From the IMG/VR virus record IMGVR_UViG_2675903650_000028: a DNA stretch of 14,391 bases; one strand, written 5' to 3'. The stretch comes from a virus (Duplodnaviria > Heunggongvirae > Uroviricota > Caudoviricetes). Positions 23 through 13,046 of this stretch are shown here, piece after piece (the first letter of the stretch is position 1; each line of letters begins with the position of its first letter). Made by a program: the position numbers and the translations under genes. The notes beneath the pieces were generated by a model that had not been told where the DNA came from, made no database searches, and saw only the letters and a list, made by a program, of their open reading frames with translations.

Positions 23-1318
23 TTAATTTTGCACCACCTCGTTTTGGGGCATGGTTGGGGCAAATTCGCTTAGCTGTGTATTTAACAGGGCTACCTGTGC
101 ATTATTGTTTTCAGACATCCATTTCCCGTATACCTGAAACACCATTTGCGCATCTGCATGTCCCATCTGGTTTGCTATGAATGCCGGGTTGGCACCGGCT
201 GTCAGCGACCAGCAGGCATAAGTATGTCTCGACTGATATGATTTGCGGTGGCGGAGGCCAGCGCGCTTTATCGCTGCGTCCCACATCTGCCTTATTGAGT
301 CAACGGTAAAATGGTCACCATAATTTTTTACTCTCGCTGACACTTCAGGTTGAAAAACAAAGGTGCATTTTTGTTTTTCTGTTCTGCCGAACTCTCTGAG
401 GTGAACGTCAATAATATGTTCTTTGCTCAGCCTCGTTAGTGTCATCTGACTCCTGAGAGCGTCGATTGCAGGCTTGATAAGGTGAATTACCCGATTGGTA
501 CCAGCCTGTGTTTTCGGTACCGTAAAACGATCTTTTGCTAAATTTCTCCTGATCATCATTGTTCCATTTTTCAGATCTATATCCTCCCACCCAAGCGCAC
601 ACAGTTCACCAGGGCGAATGCCTGTATAAACAGAAACACACCATAAATTTTTGGCCTGCTGATTTCTGCAGGCGTCGATAAGACGGATAAATTCCTCCCG
701 TGAAAGAGGATCAGGAATGGTTCTTGATTCCTTTAATGGCGAGATCCCCTTAAACGGATTATCTGCCAGGTAACCGTTATCAACACCGAACTGGAACACG
801 GCGTAAAGATTTGTCATGTAATTATTTACGGTGACAGCCGATCTCCCCGGTTGCGTAACAATATAATTACTTTTGGGGATCTGGTATCCAGTAAGTAATT
901 CTTTACGTACCGCCAGCAATTTTTCTTTATTAATCGACGAGGCAAGATTTTTTTCACCGATTATGCTCAGAATATTTTTGATGACGGCACGGTACGTGTT
1001 GAGTGACGTTTTTGCGACTTCCGTTTCTTTCAGTGCCAGAAATTTTTCAGCCAGTTCCTTTATGGTTAAATCTTGTCGGGCCTCACCAAATTTTTCCAGA
1101 TTGTGTGAGGAGGGAAACTGTTTTGCATAGTCGAAAACGCCGGTTTTTATTGCATAACAAACAGAGGCGCGCAGCTCACCTGCAACGCGCCTGTTTTTTG
1201 TCGTGTCAGGAACCCCCAGATTTTCCCTGACTCTTACACCTTTATAAACAAACCAGATACGTAATTTCCCTCCATGGTTTTCCACGCCTGTCGGATATTT
1301 CATTTTAGCTTCTCTCAT
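23..1318 (-). CDS. Phage tyrosine integrase (lambda-family site-specific recombinase)
   Basis: 431-aa ORF at the prophage end. C-terminal region has box II-like SRHTYACW and a GH...VFQVYGKW segment placing the catalytic Tyr where tyrosine recombinases have it. N-terminus (MKYPTGVE...IWF) resembles the arm-binding region of prophage integrases. Likely true start is the second ATG (1301-1303), which follows GAGAG. Confidence 0.88.
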   Translation of the reverse strand: MREAKMKYPTGVENHGGKLRIWFVYKGVRVRENLGVPDTTKNRRVAGELRASVCYAIKTGVFDYAKQFPSSHNLEKFGEARQDLTIKELAEKFLALKETEVAKTSLNTYRAVIKNILSIIGEKNLASSINKEKLLAVRKELLTGYQIPKSNYIVTQPGRSAVTVNNYMTNLYAVFQFGVDNGYLADNPFKGISPLKESRTIPDPLSREEFIRLIDACRNQQAKNLWCVSVYTGIRPGELCALGWEDIDLKNGTMMIRRNLAKDRFTVPKTQAGTNRVIHLIKPAIDALRSQMTLTRLSKEHIIDVHLREFGRTEKQKCTFVFQPEVSARVKNYGDHFTVDSIRQMWDAAIKRAGLRHRKSYQSRHTYACWSLTAGANPAFIANQMGHADAQMVFQVYGKWMSENNNAQVALLNTQLSEFAPTMPQNEVVQN

Positions 1319-1337
1319 TGGTTAGTATTGTTTTTAG

Positions 1338-1589
1338 TCAAGTAAGATGACGTCTTGGTCTTGCTGATGCCTGACGTTCAATCCAGCGATCAATTTCTTC
1401 CAGGTTGTAAAAGCATGGGCTGTTATCCCATGGCATACCGTCATGGGCTACATGCTTATATTCCCTTCCTTCCATAAACGATTTTTCCCTGGCTTTTTTT
1501 AGCGTTCCCTTTTTTATTCCTTTCAGCGCAATTAGCTGTTCTTCGGATACCCATTTACCGGGAGAGACAATCATGATTACTTCGCTCAT
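1338..1589 (-). CDS. Excisionase-like protein (DUF1233-type putative Xis)
   Basis: 83-aa ORF directly upstream of int on the same strand. Pattern P-x-KWV...GT-x-K-x-AR...GREY-x-HV...DG-x-P...C-x-YN...W matches my recollection of excisionase-like proteins of E. coli prophages. Confidence 0.65.
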   Translation of the reverse strand: MSEVIMIVSPGKWVSEEQLIALKGIKKGTLKKAREKSFMEGREYKHVAHDGMPWDNSPCFYNLEEIDRWIERQASARPRRHLT

Positions 1590-1615
1590 CGCTTTTATCT
1601 CTTACTTCAGATGAG

Positions 1616-1647
1616 CGCCGGTTGCAGAATACCAGTCACAACCGGCG
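1616..1647 (-). repeat. Perfect 9-bp inverted repeat (CGCCGGTTG / CAACCGGCG, 14-nt loop) between the RecE-like stop and the xis start
   Basis: Read directly from sequence. On the transcribed (minus) strand it is not followed by a U-run, so it is not a classic intrinsic terminator. Confidence 0.5.
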
Positions 1648-1658
1648 GTGGTTGAACA

Positions 1659-4139
1659 TTAAAAATCAGCCTGACTCGGGATCAGTTTTTGTATCGTAGC
1701 TGTAACGTATTTTGCCTGGTGACGGGCGTCATCCAGTGCATTGTGGCGCACGCCTTCGAATGGAATAACGGTTCTGGCATCAAAGTCGATTGTTTTTCCC
1801 AGCTCAACGATTGTGCGTACATCGCGATCGTTGTGGTAGCGCCACGGGCAGGGGATGTCCAGACGTTCGTATGAGGTGCGCAAAATTGCGTTATCGAAAG
1901 TCGCATCATTACCCCATACCTGAACGAATTTTTCATCTGAGTATTCGTTGATGAACTCCCGAAACTGCGAAAGGGCATCCTTCAGTTTTACCTGGTCTGT
2001 TAAAATGGCAGCTCTGGCTTCACTGGACTGCTTCAGCCACCATTCGATGGTTCCACCGTCAGGAACAGCCCCTGTATTCATTGCGTCAGTCAGACTGATA
2101 ACGATATAAAATACTGGCCCGATTTCCCCTGTTTGTGGGTCGAAGAAAACCGCACCAATAACCACGATGGGCGCATTGGTGTTGGTTCCCATTGTTTCAA
2201 GGTCGATCATCAAGTGGTACCACACTCTGCTGGTGGATGTGATAACGTGATGACCGTTCACCGCAATTAAGGGATCTGCCGTCTCGCCAGTTTCATTATC
2301 GCTGGCGTGGTCCTGAGCGCTGCCAGCATTCTCCTTGTGTGGATGTTCAGCGCCTTCCATTTCCTCCGGATCATTTTCCTGAACTTCAACCTGATTCTCT
2401 TCATTGAATGTTTCCTGGTATGTTGCGTCGCCCATCACCGCGCCACAATCAGGGCAGTTGCCGCCGCCGGTCTGACCGCAGGCGGTGCAGATCTTTTCCG
2501 GTTCCTGTTGCACTACTGGTTCAGGTTGTTTCGTTTCTGGCTCATTTTGTAACGCATTTGGGCTGTTTTGTTCCGCTTTCTGGCCGTTCTGTTCCGTTTC
2601 TTGCTGGTTTTGGTTCACAGAATCGCGGGTTTCCATCCCCTTCACCCATTTCGGATCATTCGGATCGCTAATTCCTGCAACAAATTCACCACGTGATACT
2701 GCAAGCAGTTCATCGGCGTCAGGCTGGCTGATATTGGCTGCCTGCATAATGTTGTTTACTTCGTCAGCGGTAACTTTTACCGGCCCTGGTTGTGCGGTCG
2801 TGTCAGATGCACCAGTATTTTGTTGTGAACCTGAGTATGTACTGTTTTTGCGGACGAAATATTCTTCTTTCGTGATTTCAGTAGCCCCGGCAGCCAGTGC
2901 CTTATCCAGACCAGAAAGTTTGTTTGCGCGACCGTATTTTTCGCCATCCTTGTCGGTGAAGAGGAAGTAGAACGGCCCCTCACGCTCTACAGATGGTTCG
3001 ACTTCCACTTTGCATTCGGTTTTTTCGTTGTCCGGAATTGCCGTTTCCACTGCATCAGTTTCTGGTACTGGCGACGAGAGAGTATCAGTTGCGATCTGAT
3101 TTGTTCCTTCATCTTCAAACACGCCCTTTGTAGTCAGGTATTCAGTAATGTATTTGTTCAGTGCCACAGGGTCTTTGTGAATGTCGATCGGACGCTCACG
3201 GACAAGGCCAAAAATAGTCTGGCGGTCGTAGCGAAGGGCATCAGGCTGTTTGCGCATTGATGCTGAGATACGCTTCCAGTCTTCGCGGTCGTTGTTGATA
3301 ACTTCATTTTTTGCCCAGCGATGGATGCTGCCGTCAATGTTTCCGGCATCAATGTCACCAGGCCACAGAGCGTAGGCCAGTTCATCATCCAGTGTTTTCC
3401 ATGTCTGCTTATATTCGCGACGAATGACTGCAGTGACAGGGGAGATATTTTCTGCTGAGTTTTCAGTGTGCTGTCGGTTGACTCTGGCGCGGGCGAGATC
3501 AACAGCAGACGTGTATTTTCCGGTTTCCTTGCGTTCACCTTCGCGACGTTTTTTCCAGATGCGCATCTCTGCCTGAATTTCGGGCCATTTAGCTCCAGGC
3601 TTACATTTATGCTTAACCCACCCGATGGCATGCAACTTAAGTTCTGGATACATGGCGTTAACTTCTGGCATTTTCATCAACGCTTCAACGATATGTCCGT
3701 CGAATGTTGCCATGTCTTCCTGCAACAGTTCCTGTGCACTAATCACCATATCAACGGTGATGTTTTCACATGTGTCGAACTTAACCATGACAGCGTTCTG
3801 TACTTCAGGGGCCAGCTTGTCAAAAGTGACGTTCATCGGATCTGATTCAGTCTCAACCGGGACAAAGGAAGCTGACTCCTCATCCCAGCGGTTTTCCTGC
3901 ATATATTCAGCATCCCAGGAATCGAGGGCAGGGCGGGGTATACCGGGTTTATCCTCGCAAACAAGAAATTTATAAGCGCAGTCCTGAGCAGCCGGATAAT
4001 GTTCCAGGAATTGCCAGTGAAATTTTGCGCGGGCGCGACGTTCATCACCGGCTTCAATGGCAGTGGCTACAGCGACTGCACCTTCTTCCTTTATTGCCTG
4101 TTCGTCCGGAATGGCGGCGCAAATAAAGACTTTACTCAT
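1659..4139 (-). CDS. RecE-like exonuclease (exodeoxyribonuclease VIII family) with C-terminal DEDDh-type 3'-5' exonuclease domain and Cys4 zinc ribbon
   Basis: 826-aa ORF. Central stretch (…SRGEFVAGISDPNDPKWVKG…, C-T-A-C-G-x8-C-P-D-C, …DPEEMEGAEHPH…) matches my recollection of the RecE linker region. C-terminal ~190 aa carries Exo I (MIDLETMG), Exo II (WGNDATFD) and Exo III (HNALDDA) motifs. SD GAGG lies upstream of the ATG at 4139. Confidence 0.8.
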   Translation of the reverse strand: MSKVFICAAIPDEQAIKEEGAVAVATAIEAGDERRARAKFHWQFLEHYPAAQDCAYKFLVCEDKPGIPRPALDSWDAEYMQENRWDEESASFVPVETESDPMNVTFDKLAPEVQNAVMVKFDTCENITVDMVISAQELLQEDMATFDGHIVEALMKMPEVNAMYPELKLHAIGWVKHKCKPGAKWPEIQAEMRIWKKRREGERKETGKYTSAVDLARARVNRQHTENSAENISPVTAVIRREYKQTWKTLDDELAYALWPGDIDAGNIDGSIHRWAKNEVINNDREDWKRISASMRKQPDALRYDRQTIFGLVRERPIDIHKDPVALNKYITEYLTTKGVFEDEGTNQIATDTLSSPVPETDAVETAIPDNEKTECKVEVEPSVEREGPFYFLFTDKDGEKYGRANKLSGLDKALAAGATEITKEEYFVRKNSTYSGSQQNTGASDTTAQPGPVKVTADEVNNIMQAANISQPDADELLAVSRGEFVAGISDPNDPKWVKGMETRDSVNQNQQETEQNGQKAEQNSPNALQNEPETKQPEPVVQQEPEKICTACGQTGGGNCPDCGAVMGDATYQETFNEENQVEVQENDPEEMEGAEHPHKENAGSAQDHASDNETGETADPLIAVNGHHVITSTSRVWYHLMIDLETMGTNTNAPIVVIGAVFFDPQTGEIGPVFYIVISLTDAMNTGAVPDGGTIEWWLKQSSEARAAILTDQVKLKDALSQFREFINEYSDEKFVQVWGNDATFDNAILRTSYERLDIPCPWRYHNDRDVRTIVELGKTIDFDARTVIPFEGVRHNALDDARHQAKYVTATIQKLIPSQADF

Positions 4140-4219
4140 GTTGTTTTAACCTCATTACAGATTTAAGGGTGAACAAATCTCTGCCATTGCTGGCATATAA
4201 AAATGAAACCGGATATTAA

Positions 4220-4423
4220 TTACGGTGCTGTTTTAAGTCCTGCCGGGATTTCGTTATTATCCATGAGAATAACTTTATCGACCGGATAGCAGTTACCGGG
4301 AATTTTTTGTTCTGCTGCGGCAGCCATGCATTCTTTCATTGAACCGTAAATGTCAATAACCATGTCAACAGGCTCGCCAGTATTAAGAAAAACAGTCAGA
4401 GTGAGGGCAATAGTAGTATTCAT
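4220..4423 (-). CDS. ydfD: YdfD-like small protein (Qin lysis protein homolog)
   Basis: 67 codons from an internal ATG (4421-4423) preceded by AAGGA; the track ORF extends to 4477. Its ATG overlaps the dicB stop (ATGA). Hydrophobic N-terminus (TIALTLTVFL). Position immediately after dicB matches the dicB-ydfD order of Qin; the protein sequence itself is not confidently recalled. Confidence 0.55.
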   Translation of the reverse strand: MNTTIALTLTVFLNTGEPVDMVIDIYGSMKECMAAAAEQKIPGNCYPVDKVILMDNNEIPAGLKTAP

Positions 4424-4608
4424 TGCCAGTATCCTTTTTGCATCGGGCGTAAACGTGCCAGCATTGAAAGAATGCATATTTTATTTAATAGCTCCCGTTC
4501 GTGTTTTCTCTTATTAATGGCATCTTCAGTAAATACAGGGTTACTGATTCTGACACCAATTTCAAAACAACCTTCAGACGTATTGACGTTTGGTAATAAC
4601 GTTTCCAT
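4420..4608 (-). CDS. dicB: Cell division inhibitor DicB
   Basis: 62-aa product from internal ATG 4606-4608 with GAGGA SD. Sequence METLLPNVNTSEGCFEIGV...NKICI.SMLARLR matches my recollection of 62-aa DicB. The track ORF 4420..4704 is a 5'-extended version. Confidence 0.8.
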   Translation of the reverse strand: METLLPNVNTSEGCFEIGVRISNPVFTEDAINKRKHERELLNKICILSMLARLRPMQKGYWQ

Positions 4609-4787
4609 TATCGCGTCCTCAACAATGAATTTTGTGATGCGGTGCCTGGTGCCTCCAGGTGACGTTAACCAGTTAATAATTAACGCCGGATACAGAGAAC
4701 CCACCCATAAGAACCAATACGGAAGTCAACTGGCCTTTTTAACTGTTCCGCGTGCGCTGAGCCGCATTCACCGCATCACAAAATTCA

Positions 4788-7019: not shown

Positions 7020-7250
7020 ATGCTTAAAACTGACGCACTTTTGTATTTCGGTTCAAAAACAAAACTTGCACAAGCTGCTGGTATTCGTTTGGCTTCGCTT
7101 TATAGCTGGAAAGGGGAGCTAGTACCTGAAGGTCGCGCGATGCGCCTGCAAGAGGCATCCGGCGGGGAACTTCAGTACGACCCCAAAGTTTATGACGAAT
7201 ATCGTAAGGCAAAGCGGGCGGGGCGGTTGAACAATGAAAATCACCCCTGA
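7020..7250 (+). CDS. dicC: DicC (Cro-like regulator)
   Basis: 76-aa ORF divergent from dicA with AAGGTG SD 6 nt upstream. Length and position match DicC. Confidence 0.8.
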   Translation: MLKTDALLYFGSKTKLAQAAGIRLASLYSWKGELVPEGRAMRLQEASGGELQYDPKVYDEYRKAKRAGRLNNENHP

Positions 7251-7755
7251 ACAGGTTTGTGAGGCTCTGGATGCCTGGGTGTGCCGACCAGGAATGACAC
7301 AGGAGCAGGCGACGATATTAATCACGGAAGCATTCTGGGCTCTGAAAGAACGCCCGAACATCGATGTTCAACGCGTCACGTTTAATGATGGCGAGGTTGA
7401 TCAACGGGCGCTGGGCGTTAACCGGGTGAAGATATTCGAACGCTGGAAAGCTATCGACACCAGGGATAAGCGGAAAAAATTCACGGCGCTGATTCCGGCA
7501 ATTATGGAGGCTATCCGGATTAATGATTTCAGGTTGTATCGTGAAATTAGTGACGGAAAAAGCATCACGTACATGATCGCCGGGTTAAACAAAGAATATG
7601 GCGATGTGGTGGAGTCCGGGCTGCTTTTTGCAGATCCAGCTGTAGTGGATCGTGAAACTGACGAACTTATAGAAAAAGCCATTGCTTTCAAACTTGCGTA
7701 TCGACAGCAATACCAACAAAAAGCTGGATGGAATTATGAGTCTTCTTTTTGCTGA
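7234..7755 (+). CDS. YdaT-like protein (putative CII-position regulator or toxin family)
   Basis: 173-aa ORF overlapping the dicC 3' end by 17 nt, in the position occupied by ydaT/cII in lambdoid prophages. Weak pattern resemblance to YdaT (MKI..E...A..W...ALIPAI). Confidence 0.55.
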   Translation: MKITPEQVCEALDAWVCRPGMTQEQATILITEAFWALKERPNIDVQRVTFNDGEVDQRALGVNRVKIFERWKAIDTRDKRKKFTALIPAIMEAIRINDFRLYREISDGKSITYMIAGLNKEYGDVVESGLLFADPAVVDRETDELIEKAIAFKLAYRQQYQQKAGWNYESSFC

Positions 7756-11615: not shown

Positions 11616-11684
11616 GACTGTGGGTGCTTGAGGCTATCTGTCTCAGGCATGAACACCAAAAGGCAGATAGAGAAAAGCCCCAGT

Positions 11685-11743
11685 TAACATTACGCGTCCT
11701 GCAAGACGCTTAACATTAATCTGAGGCTCAATCCATGCTGAAC
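11685..11743 (-). ncRNA. Putative Sok-like antisense RNA (approximate)
   Basis: Minus-strand promoter-like TTGCCT-17 nt-TAACCT (plus coordinates 11778-11750). The transcript would be complementary to the SD and start of the upstream in-frame ORF (ATG 11735) and would contain hairpin GCGUC-UUGCAG-GACGC (11693-11708). About 60 nt. Confidence 0.3.
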
Positions 11744-11791
11744 ACATGTAGGTTAGCCTCTTACGTGCCGAAAGGCAAGGAGAAGCAGGCT

Positions 11792-11947
11792 ATGAAGCAG
11801 CAAAAGGCGATGTTAATCGCCCTTATCGTCATCTGTTTAACCGTCATAGTGACGGCACTGGTAACGAGGAAAGACCTCTGCGAGGTACGAATTCGAACCG
11901 GCCAGACGGAGGTCGCTGTCTTCACAGCTTACGAACCTGAGGAGTAA
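11792..11947 (+). CDS. hokD: Hok-family type I toxin (HokD/RelF-like)
   Basis: 51-aa product MKQQKAMLIALIVICLTVIVTALVTRKDLCEVRIRTGQTEVAVFTAYEPEE: Hok signature with one transmembrane helix and CEV.IRTGQTEVAVF. An in-frame upstream start at 11735 gives the 70-aa track ORF (mok-like; not resolved). Confidence 0.85.
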   Translation: MKQQKAMLIALIVICLTVIVTALVTRKDLCEVRIRTGQTEVAVFTAYEPEE

Positions 11948-12015: not shown

Positions 12016-12036
12016 AACCCGCTTCGGCGGGTTTTT
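12016..12036 (+). terminator. Intrinsic terminator (AACCCGC-UUCG-GCGGGUU + U5) ending the hok transcript
   Basis: GC-rich stem with UUCG tetraloop and T-run, read from sequence. Confidence 0.8.
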
Positions 12037-12162
12037 CGTCGCATTATGAGGTTGTAATTTTAGCTACCATGAGACTATCCTAAGGATCTCAAACAGATCT
12101 ATTTTGTATCAAATTTGGTGCATGGCTTTGCCAATAATCGGAAAACAAAAGGACTCATTAGT

Positions 12163-12342
12163 ATGAGCTGCCCACTCAAAAAACACACGCGGTTGAGTAT
12201 TCCGCCTCGCGATAAAAGCGTTGTGGCAGTCCCTCGCCCAGTGATTGATGAAAACTGCGCACATCGTGAACAAGTGAAAAATGCTTTTGATTTCGGTTTT
12301 TCTCGTTATGAGAAAGCCATGGAAGAACTTTCAAAAGTGTAA
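12163..12342 (+). CDS. Small protein upstream of the Doc-family toxin (candidate antitoxin, unclassified)
   Basis: 59 codons from ATG 12163 with AAGGA SD 9 nt upstream; the track ORF starts at GTG 12115. Its stop lies 10-19 nt before the toxin start. No Phd/YefM-like motif recognised. Confidence 0.45.
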   Translation: MSCPLKKHTRLSIPPRDKSVVAVPRPVIDENCAHREQVKNAFDFGFSRYEKAMEELSKV

Positions 12343-12351
12343 TGATGGGTA

Positions 12352-12846
12352 TTGTACTCTATGGCTGAGATTGTTGAAGGAGTGCATTACCTTACGGTTG
12401 ATGATCTTGTTGAAATCAATCATTCCCTAATTGAATTACAGACGCCAGATGAGCCCGTTGGTGTTCTGAGTCCAGATAACTTAAGTTCTTCTCAGGCCCG
12501 TCCCAGCATGGTTCGATGGTATGAACAGACTAATGACATGTTTGTACTGGCATCGGTATTGATTGAAAGTCTGATTCAGAATCATCCGTTTGCTAATGCG
12601 AACAAACGAACAGCTATGATGGCTGGTTACGTCTTCTTGTTGTTGAATGGCTATGAGTTAACAGCACCAGGCGATGAAATCGTGGAAATGGCAGAGGGAC
12701 TGGCCTGCAAAACCTATACTCGAGAAGATCTCGAGAACTGGTTGTGTTATTGGTCTCGCGCGTATGACAGCCGGGAATTATGTAAAACAAGCGCAACTAT
12801 TGTTTTGTATGAAACTATCAAGCTTAAAATAGAACAGCAAAACTAA
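12352..12846 (+). CDS. Doc-family (Fic/Doc) toxin
   Basis: Motif HPFANANKRTA matches the Doc-type H-x-F-x-(D/N)-(A/G)-N-K-R signature. Start is ambiguous (TTG 12352 or ATG 12361) and has a weak SD. Confidence 0.7.
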   Translation: MYSMAEIVEGVHYLTVDDLVEINHSLIELQTPDEPVGVLSPDNLSSSQARPSMVRWYEQTNDMFVLASVLIESLIQNHPFANANKRTAMMAGYVFLLLNGYELTAPGDEIVEMAEGLACKTYTREDLENWLCYWSRAYDSRELCKTSATIVLYETIKLKIEQQN

Positions 12847-12860
12847 AGGTGCTTCCAATG

Positions 12861-12886
12861 AAAACCCGCTTCGGCGGGTTTTTTAT
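12861..12886 (+). terminator. Intrinsic terminator, second copy of the 20-nt hairpin found at 12016-12036
   Basis: AACCCGCTTCGGCGGGTTTT occurs identically at 12016-12035 and 12863-12882; here it is followed by a longer T-run. Confidence 0.8.
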
Positions 12887-12937
12887 TTTAATGGACTAAA
12901 TTTTAGCCAATTCTTCTATTTAACCGACCAGGGTTTG

Positions 12938-12965
12938 TTGATTAGCTGGTATGCCTGACTAGAAT
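12938..12965 (+). promoter_or_regulatory. Putative promoter (TTGATT-16 nt-TAGAAT) upstream of the rem-like gene
   Basis: Read directly from sequence. Confidence 0.35.
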
Positions 12966-13046
12966 CGATGCACTTAAGTAGCGCGCAGGGAGAAGAGGGA
13001 TGGACCCCAAACAGGGGAGTGCTATTTATCTGGAAGGATTCTGTTG

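What the first reader, a model, noticed from the sequence alone, without database searches (positions are those of the whole stretch)
12037..12886. Doc-family toxin cassette bracketed by two identical terminator hairpins
AACCCGCTTCGGCGGGTTTT occurs at 12016-12035 (end of the hok transcript) and again at 12863-12882 (end of the Doc gene). The 850 bp between them hold a possible promoter (TTGTAA-18 nt-TATCCT), an imperfect inverted repeat AGGATCT...AGATCTA, a 59-aa upstream ORF and a Doc-family toxin with HPFANANKRTA. This looks like a moron inserted by recombination at the terminator. The upstream partner does not look like Phd, so the neutralisation mechanism may be non-canonical.
Basis: partly seen in the sequence, partly recalled or inferred. 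Interest (0 to 1): 0.62.

Follow-up and report, generated by a model that had tools for sequence, protein, structure and literature searches.

The report
Prophage Doc toxin cassette, unannotated partner
An 847-bp, two-gene toxin-antitoxin "add-on" sits just after the hok gene of a lambda-like E. coli prophage, and the only unfamiliar parts are its tiny uncharacterised partner protein and the shared terminator hairpin at which such add-ons are swapped in and out.

Summary
A 21-nt hairpin terminator, AACCCGCTTCGGCGGGTTTTT, occurs at 12016-12036 and 12863-12883. Between the copies lie a leader, a 59-codon gene (12163-12342) and a 161-aa Doc-family toxin gene (12361-12846).

Other E. coli prophages carry hok, one terminator copy and the same right flank, so the cassette is a precise 847-bp presence/absence polymorphism.

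Two corrections apply:
- The downstream hairpin is the Doc cassette's own terminator. It follows doc in Salmonella, Proteus and Providencia loci that lack hok, sometimes with compensatory stem changes.
- The 20-mer is a generic phage terminator, so identity alone does not prove duplication.

Leaders and right flanks reassort around the cassette. Two other cargo cassettes occupy the same slot between the same hairpins.

The 59-aa partner has no match to Phd or to any curated family. It pairs with Doc in every locus examined, in both directions. It is under purifying selection and is predicted to be a disordered N-terminus plus one amphipathic C-terminal helix. It is most likely a minimal antitoxin without a DNA-binding domain. 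Toxicity and neutralisation are untested.

Verdict: a Doc toxin-antitoxin moron with a new partner family; moderate interest.

The parts
11622..11797 (+). sok / hok-mRNA 5' regulatory region of the neighbouring type I toxin-antitoxin locus (context)
   Evidence: Rfam RF01794 sok, 118.9 bits against a gathering score of 59
11792..11947 (+). hokD coding sequence (51 aa); the overlapping mok-like ORF starts at 11735
   Evidence: Pfam HOK_GEF 3e-23; RefSeq annotates hokD in the near-identical locus L001
12016..12036 (+). Terminator copy 1 (end of the hok transcript): AACCCGCTTCGGCGGGTTTTT
   Evidence: conserved after hok in 32 viral contigs
12037..12162 (+). Cassette leader with a weak promoter-like pair, TTGTAA (12052-12057), 18 nt, TATCCT (12076-12081). 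GC is 36.5%.
   Evidence: Read from the sequence. 8 of 12 consensus positions, not passed by the scan. The hexamers and spacing recur in a second leader type that is only 50-60% identical overall. GC.
12163..12342 (+). ORF59: 59-aa partner gene, the putative minimal antitoxin (end coordinate includes the stop)
   Evidence: PHROG 2208, function unknown, 1.7e-40. No Pfam, NCBIfam, PADLOC or PDB hit. Exactly 59 codons in 91 of 91 loci, with variation concentrated at third codon positions. Always paired with doc. AlphaFold2 predicts a helix at residues 34-57 and a low-confidence N-terminus.
12361..12846 (+). doc: 161-aa Doc-family (Fic-fold) toxin with the motif HPFANANKR (end coordinate includes the stop)
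   Evidence: TIGR01550 2.2e-37. PDB sequence hits to Doc proteins. Foldseek top hits are P1 Doc 3dd7 and 3k33, probability 1.00. Motif residues are invariant in a 49-sequence alignment.
12863..12883 (+). Terminator copy 2, the cassette's own terminator, and the right end of the 847-bp indel (12037-12883)
   Evidence: The same or compensatory-variant hairpin follows doc in hok-less loci of other genera.
12884..13043 (+). Right-flank spacer. It joins directly to the single hok terminator in prophages that lack the cassette.
   Evidence: Chimeric query and loci L131, L132
13047..13307 (+). 86-aa conserved nin-region gene downstream (context; end coordinate includes the stop)
   Evidence: PHROG 340, function unknown; annotated as a hypothetical protein in L001-L003

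Best explanation
The segment 12037-12883 is a self-contained two-gene Doc-family type II toxin-antitoxin moron. It lies in the nin region of a lambdoid (Qin-like) prophage, immediately after the hok/sok locus.

Doc is inferred, by family membership, to phosphorylate EF-Tu and stop translation.

ORF59 is translated from the same transcript, ending 18 nt upstream of doc. It is inferred to neutralise Doc by laying its conserved amphipathic C-terminal helix (residues 34-57) onto the toxin. This would be functionally like the C-terminal segment of Phd. ORF59 has no folded DNA-binding or dimerisation domain and no detectable sequence relationship to Phd.

The cassette ends in its own intrinsic terminator, which is the same generic cUUCGg hairpin that ends the hok transcript. 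This leaves 21-bp direct repeats on both sides. I infer that recombination within those repeats moves the cassette in and out of the site and re-pairs it with different downstream flanks. The same slot takes other small cargo cassettes in other prophages.

Shown: anatomy, family membership, precise indel, reassortment, strict gene pairing, purifying selection.
Inferred: toxicity, neutralisation, binding mode, promoter activity, recombination mechanism.
For: Doc identity.

Precise empty site: an in-silico excision product (hok, one terminator, the window's right flank) matches as a single piece in 82 E. coli genomes, up to 97% identity. The junction is exact in L131 and L132.

Distribution and mosaicism: the cassette is in 129 of 5426 complete E. 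coli genomes. Among 49 viral loci there are 3 leader types and 6 right-flank types in at least 11 combinations. Homology breaks in the T-run.

Right flanks: those found after the doc terminator also occur directly after the hok terminator in cassette-free phages.

Other cargo between the same hairpins after hok: L083 (an HTH-like protein plus a Peptidase_M78 protein) and L016 (a 216-aa protein plus an HTH_3/Peptidase_M78 protein).

The terminator belongs to the cassette: an identical 20-mer follows doc in Salmonella phage SW-37, and compensatory variants follow it elsewhere (CCCACTCCGGTGGG in Proteus, CCCACTTCGGTGGG in Providencia), all without hok.

ORF59:
- An ORF59 homologue lies directly upstream of doc in every Doc locus examined (about 95).
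- In the reverse direction, 79 of 79 ORF59 loci have doc 7-18 nt downstream.
- All 91 complete copies have exactly 59 codons. Across 59 codons, 56 third positions vary against 23 second positions. In the C-terminal 26 codons the figures are 25 against 6.
- AlphaFold2 predicts one helix at residues 34-57 (block pLDDT 79-86) and a low-confidence N-terminus.

Precedent: a Phd-C segment alone, fused to SUMO, neutralises a Doc toxin, and single-domain antitoxins exist (PMC10440598).

Moron criteria come from PMC3594210. Cassette GC is 42.4%, against 46.8% for the window and 51.3% for the hok locus.
Against: - There is no experimental evidence for toxicity or neutralisation.
- ORF59 shows no similarity to Phd or to any solved chain, so the binding mode rests on analogy.
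- No DNA-binding domain is predicted, so the autoregulation typical of type II systems is unexplained.
- The promoter match is weak (8 of 12).
- The Doc model is only moderately confident (mean pLDDT 69.7).
- The 20-mer is common in unrelated phages (88 of 122 occurrences). Its identity on both sides may therefore be convergence, and breakpoints at terminators could reflect selection on viable junctions rather than homology-guided exchange.
- In 9 of 43 hok-adjacent cassettes the two copies differ by point mutations.
Confidence: 0.65

Rival explanations
1. The two hairpins are identical by convergence on an optimal terminator, not because recombination uses them. Under this view, cassette boundaries at terminators arise from illegitimate recombination followed by selection for junctions that keep transcription units intact (the Hendrix-type model of phage mosaicism).
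For: The 20-mer occurs in 88 contexts unrelated to hok, doc or the L083 cargo among 122 occurrences in viral contigs. The two copies differ in 9 of 43 hok-adjacent cassettes. Leaders and internal patches of the cassette are also mosaic, so exchange is not confined to the hairpins.
Against: Empty and filled alleles differ by exactly one repeat unit, with the crossover inside the 21-bp identity. At least six different right flanks all start within the T-run. Three unrelated cargo cassettes share the same bracket at the same site.
Confidence: 0.3
2. The downstream hairpin is a duplicate of the hok terminator made during insertion (a target-duplication-like event), and the Doc cassette has no terminator of its own.
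For: The copies are 21 nt long, identical, directly repeated and flank an insertion. A single copy marks the empty site.
Against: doc is followed by the same or a compensatorily mutated hairpin in Salmonella, Proteus, Providencia, Morganella, Serratia and Kluyvera loci that have no hok and no upstream copy. The cassette has no transposase or integrase and no terminal inverted repeats, and 21 bp is longer than usual target-site duplications.
Confidence: 0.07
3. ORF59 is not the antitoxin. It could be a regulator, adaptor or unrelated small phage protein. Doc would then be controlled in another way, for example by its own roughly 30-aa C-terminal extension, or would not be toxic.
For: There is no homology to any antitoxin family. 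This Doc is about 35 aa longer than P1 Doc, and its predicted extra C-terminal helix (residues 144-160) is of low confidence. Every source names ORF59 only 'hypothetical protein' or 'bacteriophage protein'.
Against: Strict two-way co-occurrence, fixed upstream position and 7-18 nt spacing hold across at least seven genera. The C-terminal helix of ORF59 is more conserved than Doc itself. The Doc C-terminal extension is the most variable part of the protein (consensus). No third conserved gene travels with the pair.
Confidence: 0.15

Closest known systems
phd-doc of bacteriophage P1 (type II toxin-antitoxin; PDB 3dd7, 3k33, 3kh2)
   Same: A phage-borne two-gene operon with a small partner gene upstream. 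The toxin has the Doc HxFx(D/N)(A/G)NKR motif and the Fic/Doc fold. The partner has a disordered region and a C-terminal helix, which in Phd is the neutralising element (background knowledge: Garcia-Pino 2008, as cited in PMC10440598).
   Different: The partner shows no detectable similarity to Phd (hhalign probability 0.2%) and lacks the Phd/YefM N-terminal DNA-binding domain. Doc here is 161 aa against 126 aa. The location is the nin region of a lambdoid prophage next to hok, not the P1 plasmid prophage.
Modular 'Phd-C' neutralising element and single-domain antitoxins (NetFlax study, PMC10440598)
   Same: A short C-terminal helical segment is sufficient to neutralise a Doc toxin once stabilised. 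Antitoxins consisting only of the neutralising element are known.
   Different: In that study the element is fused to a Panacea domain. Here it is a free-standing 59-aa protein with a conserved IPxRD N-terminal motif of unknown role. Similarity to Phd-C is not demonstrated.
Class I Fic toxins with small inhibitory partners (VbhA-VbhT, FicA-FicT; PDB 3shg, 5jff)
   Same: A small upstream protein is thought to supply an inhibitory helix to a Fic-fold enzyme. These are the next-best structural matches to the Doc model.
   Different: The (S/T)xxxE(G/N) inhibitory motif (recalled from background knowledge) is absent from ORF59 on reading the sequences. The toxin carries the Doc kinase-type motif, not the Fic AMPylation motif HPFx(D/E)GN(G/K)R.
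Phage morons (HK97 gene 15, lambda lom/bor; review PMC3594210)
   Same: An extra transcription unit lies between genes that are adjacent in related phages. It has its own terminator and a candidate promoter, and a lower GC content. Toxin-antitoxin pairs as morons are already reported in that review.
   Different: Here the moron terminator is identical to the neighbour's terminator, and the same bracket recurs around different cargo at one site.
relBE-hokD arrangement in the E. coli K-12 Qin prophage (background knowledge, not tested here)
   Same: A type II toxin-antitoxin module sits directly next to hokD in a Qin-type prophage.
   Different: relBE lies upstream of hokD and is co-transcribed with it. 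The Doc cassette lies downstream of the hok terminator as a separate unit.

Membership tests
Doc subfamily of Fic/Doc proteins (TIGR01550, PF02661) | Profile match above the curated cutoff | tested here: met
   TIGR01550 at 127.9 bits against a cutoff of 38.65; PF02661 at 45.7 bits against 24; PHROG 577 at 2e-51
Doc subfamily of Fic/Doc proteins (TIGR01550, PF02661) | Doc-type catalytic motif HxFx(D/N)(A/G)NKR | tested here: met
   HPFANANKR at residues 75-83. H75, F77, N79, N81 and K82 are invariant and R83 nearly invariant in 49 homologues. The motif aligns with that of P1 Doc and 9vzc.
Doc subfamily of Fic/Doc proteins (TIGR01550, PF02661) | All-helical Fic/Doc fold | tested here: met
   The AlphaFold2 model (mean pLDDT 69.7) has P1 Doc 3dd7/3k33/3kh2 as top Foldseek matches at probability 1.00, followed by VbhT and Bep Fic domains. 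The model has only moderate confidence.
Doc subfamily of Fic/Doc proteins (TIGR01550, PF02661) | Phosphorylation of EF-Tu and growth arrest | not testable with these tools
   Requires expression and biochemical assays
phd-doc type II toxin-antitoxin system | Small partner gene immediately upstream of the toxin in the same orientation, always co-occurring | tested here: met
   Every Doc locus examined (about 95) has an ORF59 homologue directly upstream. In the reverse direction, 79 of 79 ORF59 loci have doc 7-18 nt downstream.
phd-doc type II toxin-antitoxin system | Antitoxin belongs to the Phd/YefM family | tested here: not met
   No Pfam or NCBIfam hit at E<=1. hhalign against P1 Phd gives probability 0.2%. 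No PDB sequence hit at E<=10.
phd-doc type II toxin-antitoxin system | Antitoxin carries a DNA-binding domain that autoregulates the operon | tested here: not met
   AlphaFold2 gives a single helix at residues 34-57 and no folded N-terminal domain. All 38 family representatives are small, with no fusion to a recognisable DNA-binding domain among the sequences inspected. A novel DNA-binding mode cannot be excluded.
phd-doc type II toxin-antitoxin system | Partner binds and neutralises the toxin | not testable with these tools
Phage moron | Present or absent between genes that are adjacent in related phages | tested here: met
   A precise 847-bp indel against L131/L132 and 82 genomes; other empty sites in L002 and L003
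Phage moron | Own terminator | tested here: met
   Hairpin plus T-run at 12860-12883; it travels with doc in other genera
Phage moron | Own promoter active in the lysogen | tested here: inconclusive
   TTGTAA, 18 nt, TATCCT matches 8 of 12 consensus positions and is below the scan threshold. The arrangement recurs in a diverged leader type. No expression data are available.
Phage moron | Base composition different from the neighbours | tested here: met
   Cassette GC 42.4%, against 46.8% for the window, 51.3% for hok and 54.5% downstream. The difference is modest.
Transposable element or integron-type cassette (considered) | Transposase or integrase, terminal inverted repeats, or short target-site duplication | tested here: not met
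   The unit holds only ORF59 and doc. There are no terminal inverted repeats. The direct repeat is 21 nt long and is a functional terminator.
[quoted passage not shown] | Hok peptide and sok RNA profiles | tested here: met
   HOK_GEF 3e-23; Rfam sok 118.9 bits

The most novel reading that the evidence does not exclude
ORF59 founds a new family of minimal Doc antitoxins that lack a DNA-binding domain. Its invariant C-terminal helix and its conserved IPxRD N-terminal motif may neutralise or sense in a way that differs from Phd-type fold complementation. Possibilities include an active-site-directed peptide or a labile sensor that releases Doc during superinfection. In addition, the generic cUUCGg terminator after hok may act as a homology-guided docking site, so that this position would be a general exchange slot for toxin-antitoxin and defence-like cargo in lambdoid prophages.
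Probability: 0.25. Interest if true: 0.6.

Novelty: new variant of a known kind. Interest (0 to 1): 0.4.

Why it matters
Doc is a well-understood translation-blocking kinase. Its Enterobacterales prophage subfamily (155-166 aa, seen in at least a dozen genera) is annotated everywhere as a toxin with no named antitoxin.

Recognising the 59-aa partner would complete these annotations. It would also add a very small, experimentally convenient neutralising module to the list of single-domain antitoxins.

The bracket of identical terminators offers a concrete, testable case for an old question in phage genomics. That question is whether mosaic boundaries arise through short conserved sequences used for homologous exchange, or through random joining followed by selection.

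Neither point overturns current views.

Tried and rejected
- hhalign of the ORF59 alignment against P1 Phd (sequence verified against PDB) found nothing.
- PDB, Pfam, NCBIfam and PADLOC searches with ORF59 found nothing.
- A profile search of 1.84 billion representatives found only 38 small relatives and no informative domain fusion.
- EF-Tu pseudo-substrate idea: K-S-V-V-A in ORF59 resembles R-T382-V-G-A in EF-Tu. I dropped it because Ser19 is not conserved across the family.
- Zinc-site idea: a Cys-x-His site in ORF59 was dropped because the Cys is not conserved.
- Fic-type inhibitory motif (S/T)xxxE(G/N): absent.
- Possible hok remnant upstream of the hok-less E. coli leader type (L006): the alignment shows no convincing homology.
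- Six literature searches found no description of this cassette or of ORF59. One E. coli toxin-antitoxin survey lists Fic toxins with unknown partners, without characterising them.

Full report
**1. The observation**

The 20-mer AACCCGCTTCGGCGGGTTTT occurs exactly twice in the window, at 12016-12035 and 12863-12882 on the + strand. None of 200 shuffles gave two matches. The identity extends to 21 nt and the spacing is 847 nt. Each copy folds as a G+C stem with a UUCG loop followed by a U-run, at -12.7 and -14.9 kcal/mol. The first copy has a shorter U-tract, so only the second passes the simple terminator scan.

Upstream lies a complete hok/sok locus: Pfam HOK_GEF 3e-23 and Rfam sok at 11622-11797.

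Between the hairpins lie three elements:
- a 126-nt leader;
- a 59-codon ORF (12163-12342);
- a Doc gene.

The better-supported Doc start is the ATG at 12361 (161 aa), as in RefSeq and as homologues align.

The proposed promoter, TTGTAA, 18 nt, TATCCT (12052-12081), matches only 8 of 12 consensus positions. The proposed inverted repeat has only 5-bp arms, about what chance gives in a leader of this size.

**2. Context**

The window is 99.9% identical to a prophage of E. coli E200086. In order it carries:
- integrase;
- a large protein with an exoribonuclease-like domain;
- a CI-like repressor, Cro and YdaT;
- replication genes and DUF977;
- hok;
- the cassette;
- the DUF968, RusA and DUF1133 genes in the related record.

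. This is the early-right (nin) region of a lambdoid, Qin-like prophage.

**3. The toxin**

The 161-aa protein is a Doc-family member by every sequence test:
- TIGR01550 at 127.9 bits against a cutoff of 38.65;
- Pfam Fic;
- PHROG 'Doc-like toxin';
- PDB sequence hits to Doc proteins.

The motif HPFANANKR has its key residues invariant in 49 homologues. A moderately confident model (pLDDT 69.7) has P1 Doc as its best structural match at probability 1.00, followed by Fic domains.

It belongs to a 155-166-aa subfamily spread over many Enterobacterales genera. Its last 30 or so residues are the variable part.

**4. Presence/absence polymorphism**

A synthetic "excision product" (hok 3' end, one terminator, the window's right flank) matches as one piece in 82 complete E. 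coli genomes, up to 97% identity. In strains A30 and OkiPb01679 the junction is exact to the base. The cassette is therefore an 847-bp indel (12037-12883) flanked by the 21-bp repeat, and a single copy marks the empty site. Other empty sites with a different spacer also have one copy. The cassette is present in 129 of 5426 complete E. coli genomes.

**5. Whose terminator is the second copy?**

It is the cassette's own. doc homologues of 54-76% identity occur in loci without hok and without an upstream copy, in Salmonella, Proteus, Providencia, Morganella, Serratia and Kluyvera. There they are still followed by this hairpin or a variant of it. The variants include compensatory stem changes (CCCACTCCGGTGGG, CCCACTTCGGTGGG) and loop changes (CCCGCTACGGCGGG).

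The exact 20-mer is also a generic phage terminator. A capped scan of viral contigs gave 122 occurrences:

| Context | Occurrences |
|---|---|
| After hok | 32 |
| After doc | 1 |
| After another cargo (L083) | 1 |
| Other contexts, often in front of structural genes | 88 |

. Identity of the two copies is therefore weak evidence for a duplication event.

**6. Evidence that the hairpins are exchange points**

Among 49 viral-contig loci carrying the E. coli-type cassette I found three leader types and six right-flank types in at least 11 combinations. Every right flank starts within the T-run. Several of these flanks also occur directly after the hok terminator in cassette-free phages.

The two copies share the 20-mer core in 34 of 43 hok-adjacent cassettes. 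In the other 9, one copy has point changes.

Two other cargo cassettes sit in the same slot between the same hairpins and rejoin known empty-site flanks:
- L083: an HTH-like protein plus a Peptidase_M78 protein;
- L016: a 216-aa protein plus an HTH_3/Peptidase_M78 protein.

This fits homologous exchange at a short shared sequence. It does not exclude random joining followed by selection for intact transcription units. Inside the cassette the leader is only 50-60% identical between types while the genes are 93-100% identical, so exchange is not limited to the hairpins.

**7. The partner, ORF59**

It is a real gene.
- All 91 complete copies have exactly 59 codons.
- Across the 59 codons, 56 third positions vary against 23 second positions.
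- In the C-terminal 26 codons the figures are 25 against 6.

It is always directly upstream of doc in every Doc locus examined. In the reverse direction, 79 of 79 ORF59 loci have doc 7-18 nt downstream.

It has no Pfam, NCBIfam, PADLOC or PDB match. It matches PHROG 2208, which has no assigned function, and sources name it only "hypothetical protein" or "bacteriophage protein". A profile search of 1.84 billion representatives finds 38 relatives, nearly all 47-95 aa, with no informative fusion. Profile comparison with P1 Phd is null.

AlphaFold2 predicts a low-confidence N-terminal 33 residues and one helix at residues 34-57. The helix, QVKNAFDFGFSRYEKAMEELSKV, is amphipathic and nearly invariant across genera. 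The N-terminus holds a conserved IPxRD motif.

**8. Mechanism**

By family membership, Doc is expected to phosphorylate EF-Tu and arrest translation. That is established knowledge for P1 Doc (Castro-Roa 2013, as cited in PMC10440598) and is inferred here.

ORF59 is most likely the antitoxin, acting through its C-terminal helix. This is by analogy with the C-terminal segment of Phd. It also draws on the finding that a Phd-C segment alone neutralises a Doc toxin when stabilised, and that single-domain antitoxins exist (PMC10440598).

What is missing is a DNA-binding domain, so how the operon is regulated is open. I could not model the complex.

The biological role cannot be decided from sequence. 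Candidates are prophage retention, exclusion of other phages, or something else.

**9. Comparison and novelty**

The cassette meets the moron criteria of PMC3594210: it is inserted between otherwise adjacent genes, has its own terminator and has lower GC. The promoter criterion is unproven.

It is a member of the Doc toxin family. It is not a phd-doc system in the strict sense, because the Phd membership test fails. I rate it a new variant of a known kind: a Doc toxin with an undescribed minimal partner family, in a recurrent terminator-bracketed cargo slot next to hok.

Six literature searches found no description of it. One survey lists Fic toxins with unknown partners in E. coli, without characterising them.

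**10. Verdict**

Interest is moderate at 0.4. The finding is ordinary in kind, but it names a testable new antitoxin family and offers a clean natural system for asking how phage modules are exchanged.

Noticed in passing
L083 (IMGVR_UViG_2619619126_000010) 334-1701, minus strand; L016 (IMGVR_UViG_2609459821_000007) 2815-4671: Two other two-gene cargo cassettes occupy the same position after hok, each between two copies of CCCGCTTCGGCGGG. One is an HTH-like 119-aa protein plus a Peptidase_M78 158-aa protein. The other is a 216-aa protein plus an HTH_3/Peptidase_M78 367-aa protein. Each rejoins a right flank known from empty sites.
   Followed up: partly
L181-L206 (Salmonella-type viral contigs), about 0-70 nt after the doc stop: doc is followed by two tandem terminators. 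The first is ATCCGCTGAGAGGCGGTTTTT. The second is the generic AACCCGCTTCGGCGGGTTTTTTT, immediately in front of TTTATGGAG..ATG of the next gene. The cassette there also sits next to a resident copy of the generic hairpin.
   Followed up: no
window 12037-12162 compared with L005 2382-2500 and L006 2370-2500: The cassette leader exists in at least three types that are only 50-60% identical, while ORF59 and doc are 93-100% identical. Only a CTA[TA]NCTAA box and CTATTTTGTAT are shared. The N-terminal residues of ORF59 (MSCP.. against MSYA..) differ along with the leader type.
   Followed up: partly
L129 (Salmonella phage SW-37, CP051275.1) 2465-3200: The ORF59 and doc homologues are interrupted by frameshifts in this deposited phage genome. 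This is either decay or sequencing error.
   Followed up: no
L130 (NZ_OL790812.1, Proteus mirabilis): The record is filed in the plasmid collection as 'plasmid unnamed' but is 4.09 Mb long, so it is evidently a chromosome. There the ORF59-doc pair lies next to two small upstream ORFs and far from any hok.
   Followed up: no
window 7234-7755 (+) and 1659-4139 (-): A YdaT_toxin-family gene overlaps the end of cro. An 826-aa early-left protein carries a C-terminal Rv2179c-like 3'-5' exoribonuclease domain.
   Followed up: no
window 12466-12519 (Doc residues 36-53): This stretch (NLSSSQ.RPS) contains several invariant residues in the 49-sequence alignment, yet it is the least confident part of the model (pLDDT below 50). 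It may become ordered only on partner or substrate binding.
   Followed up: no
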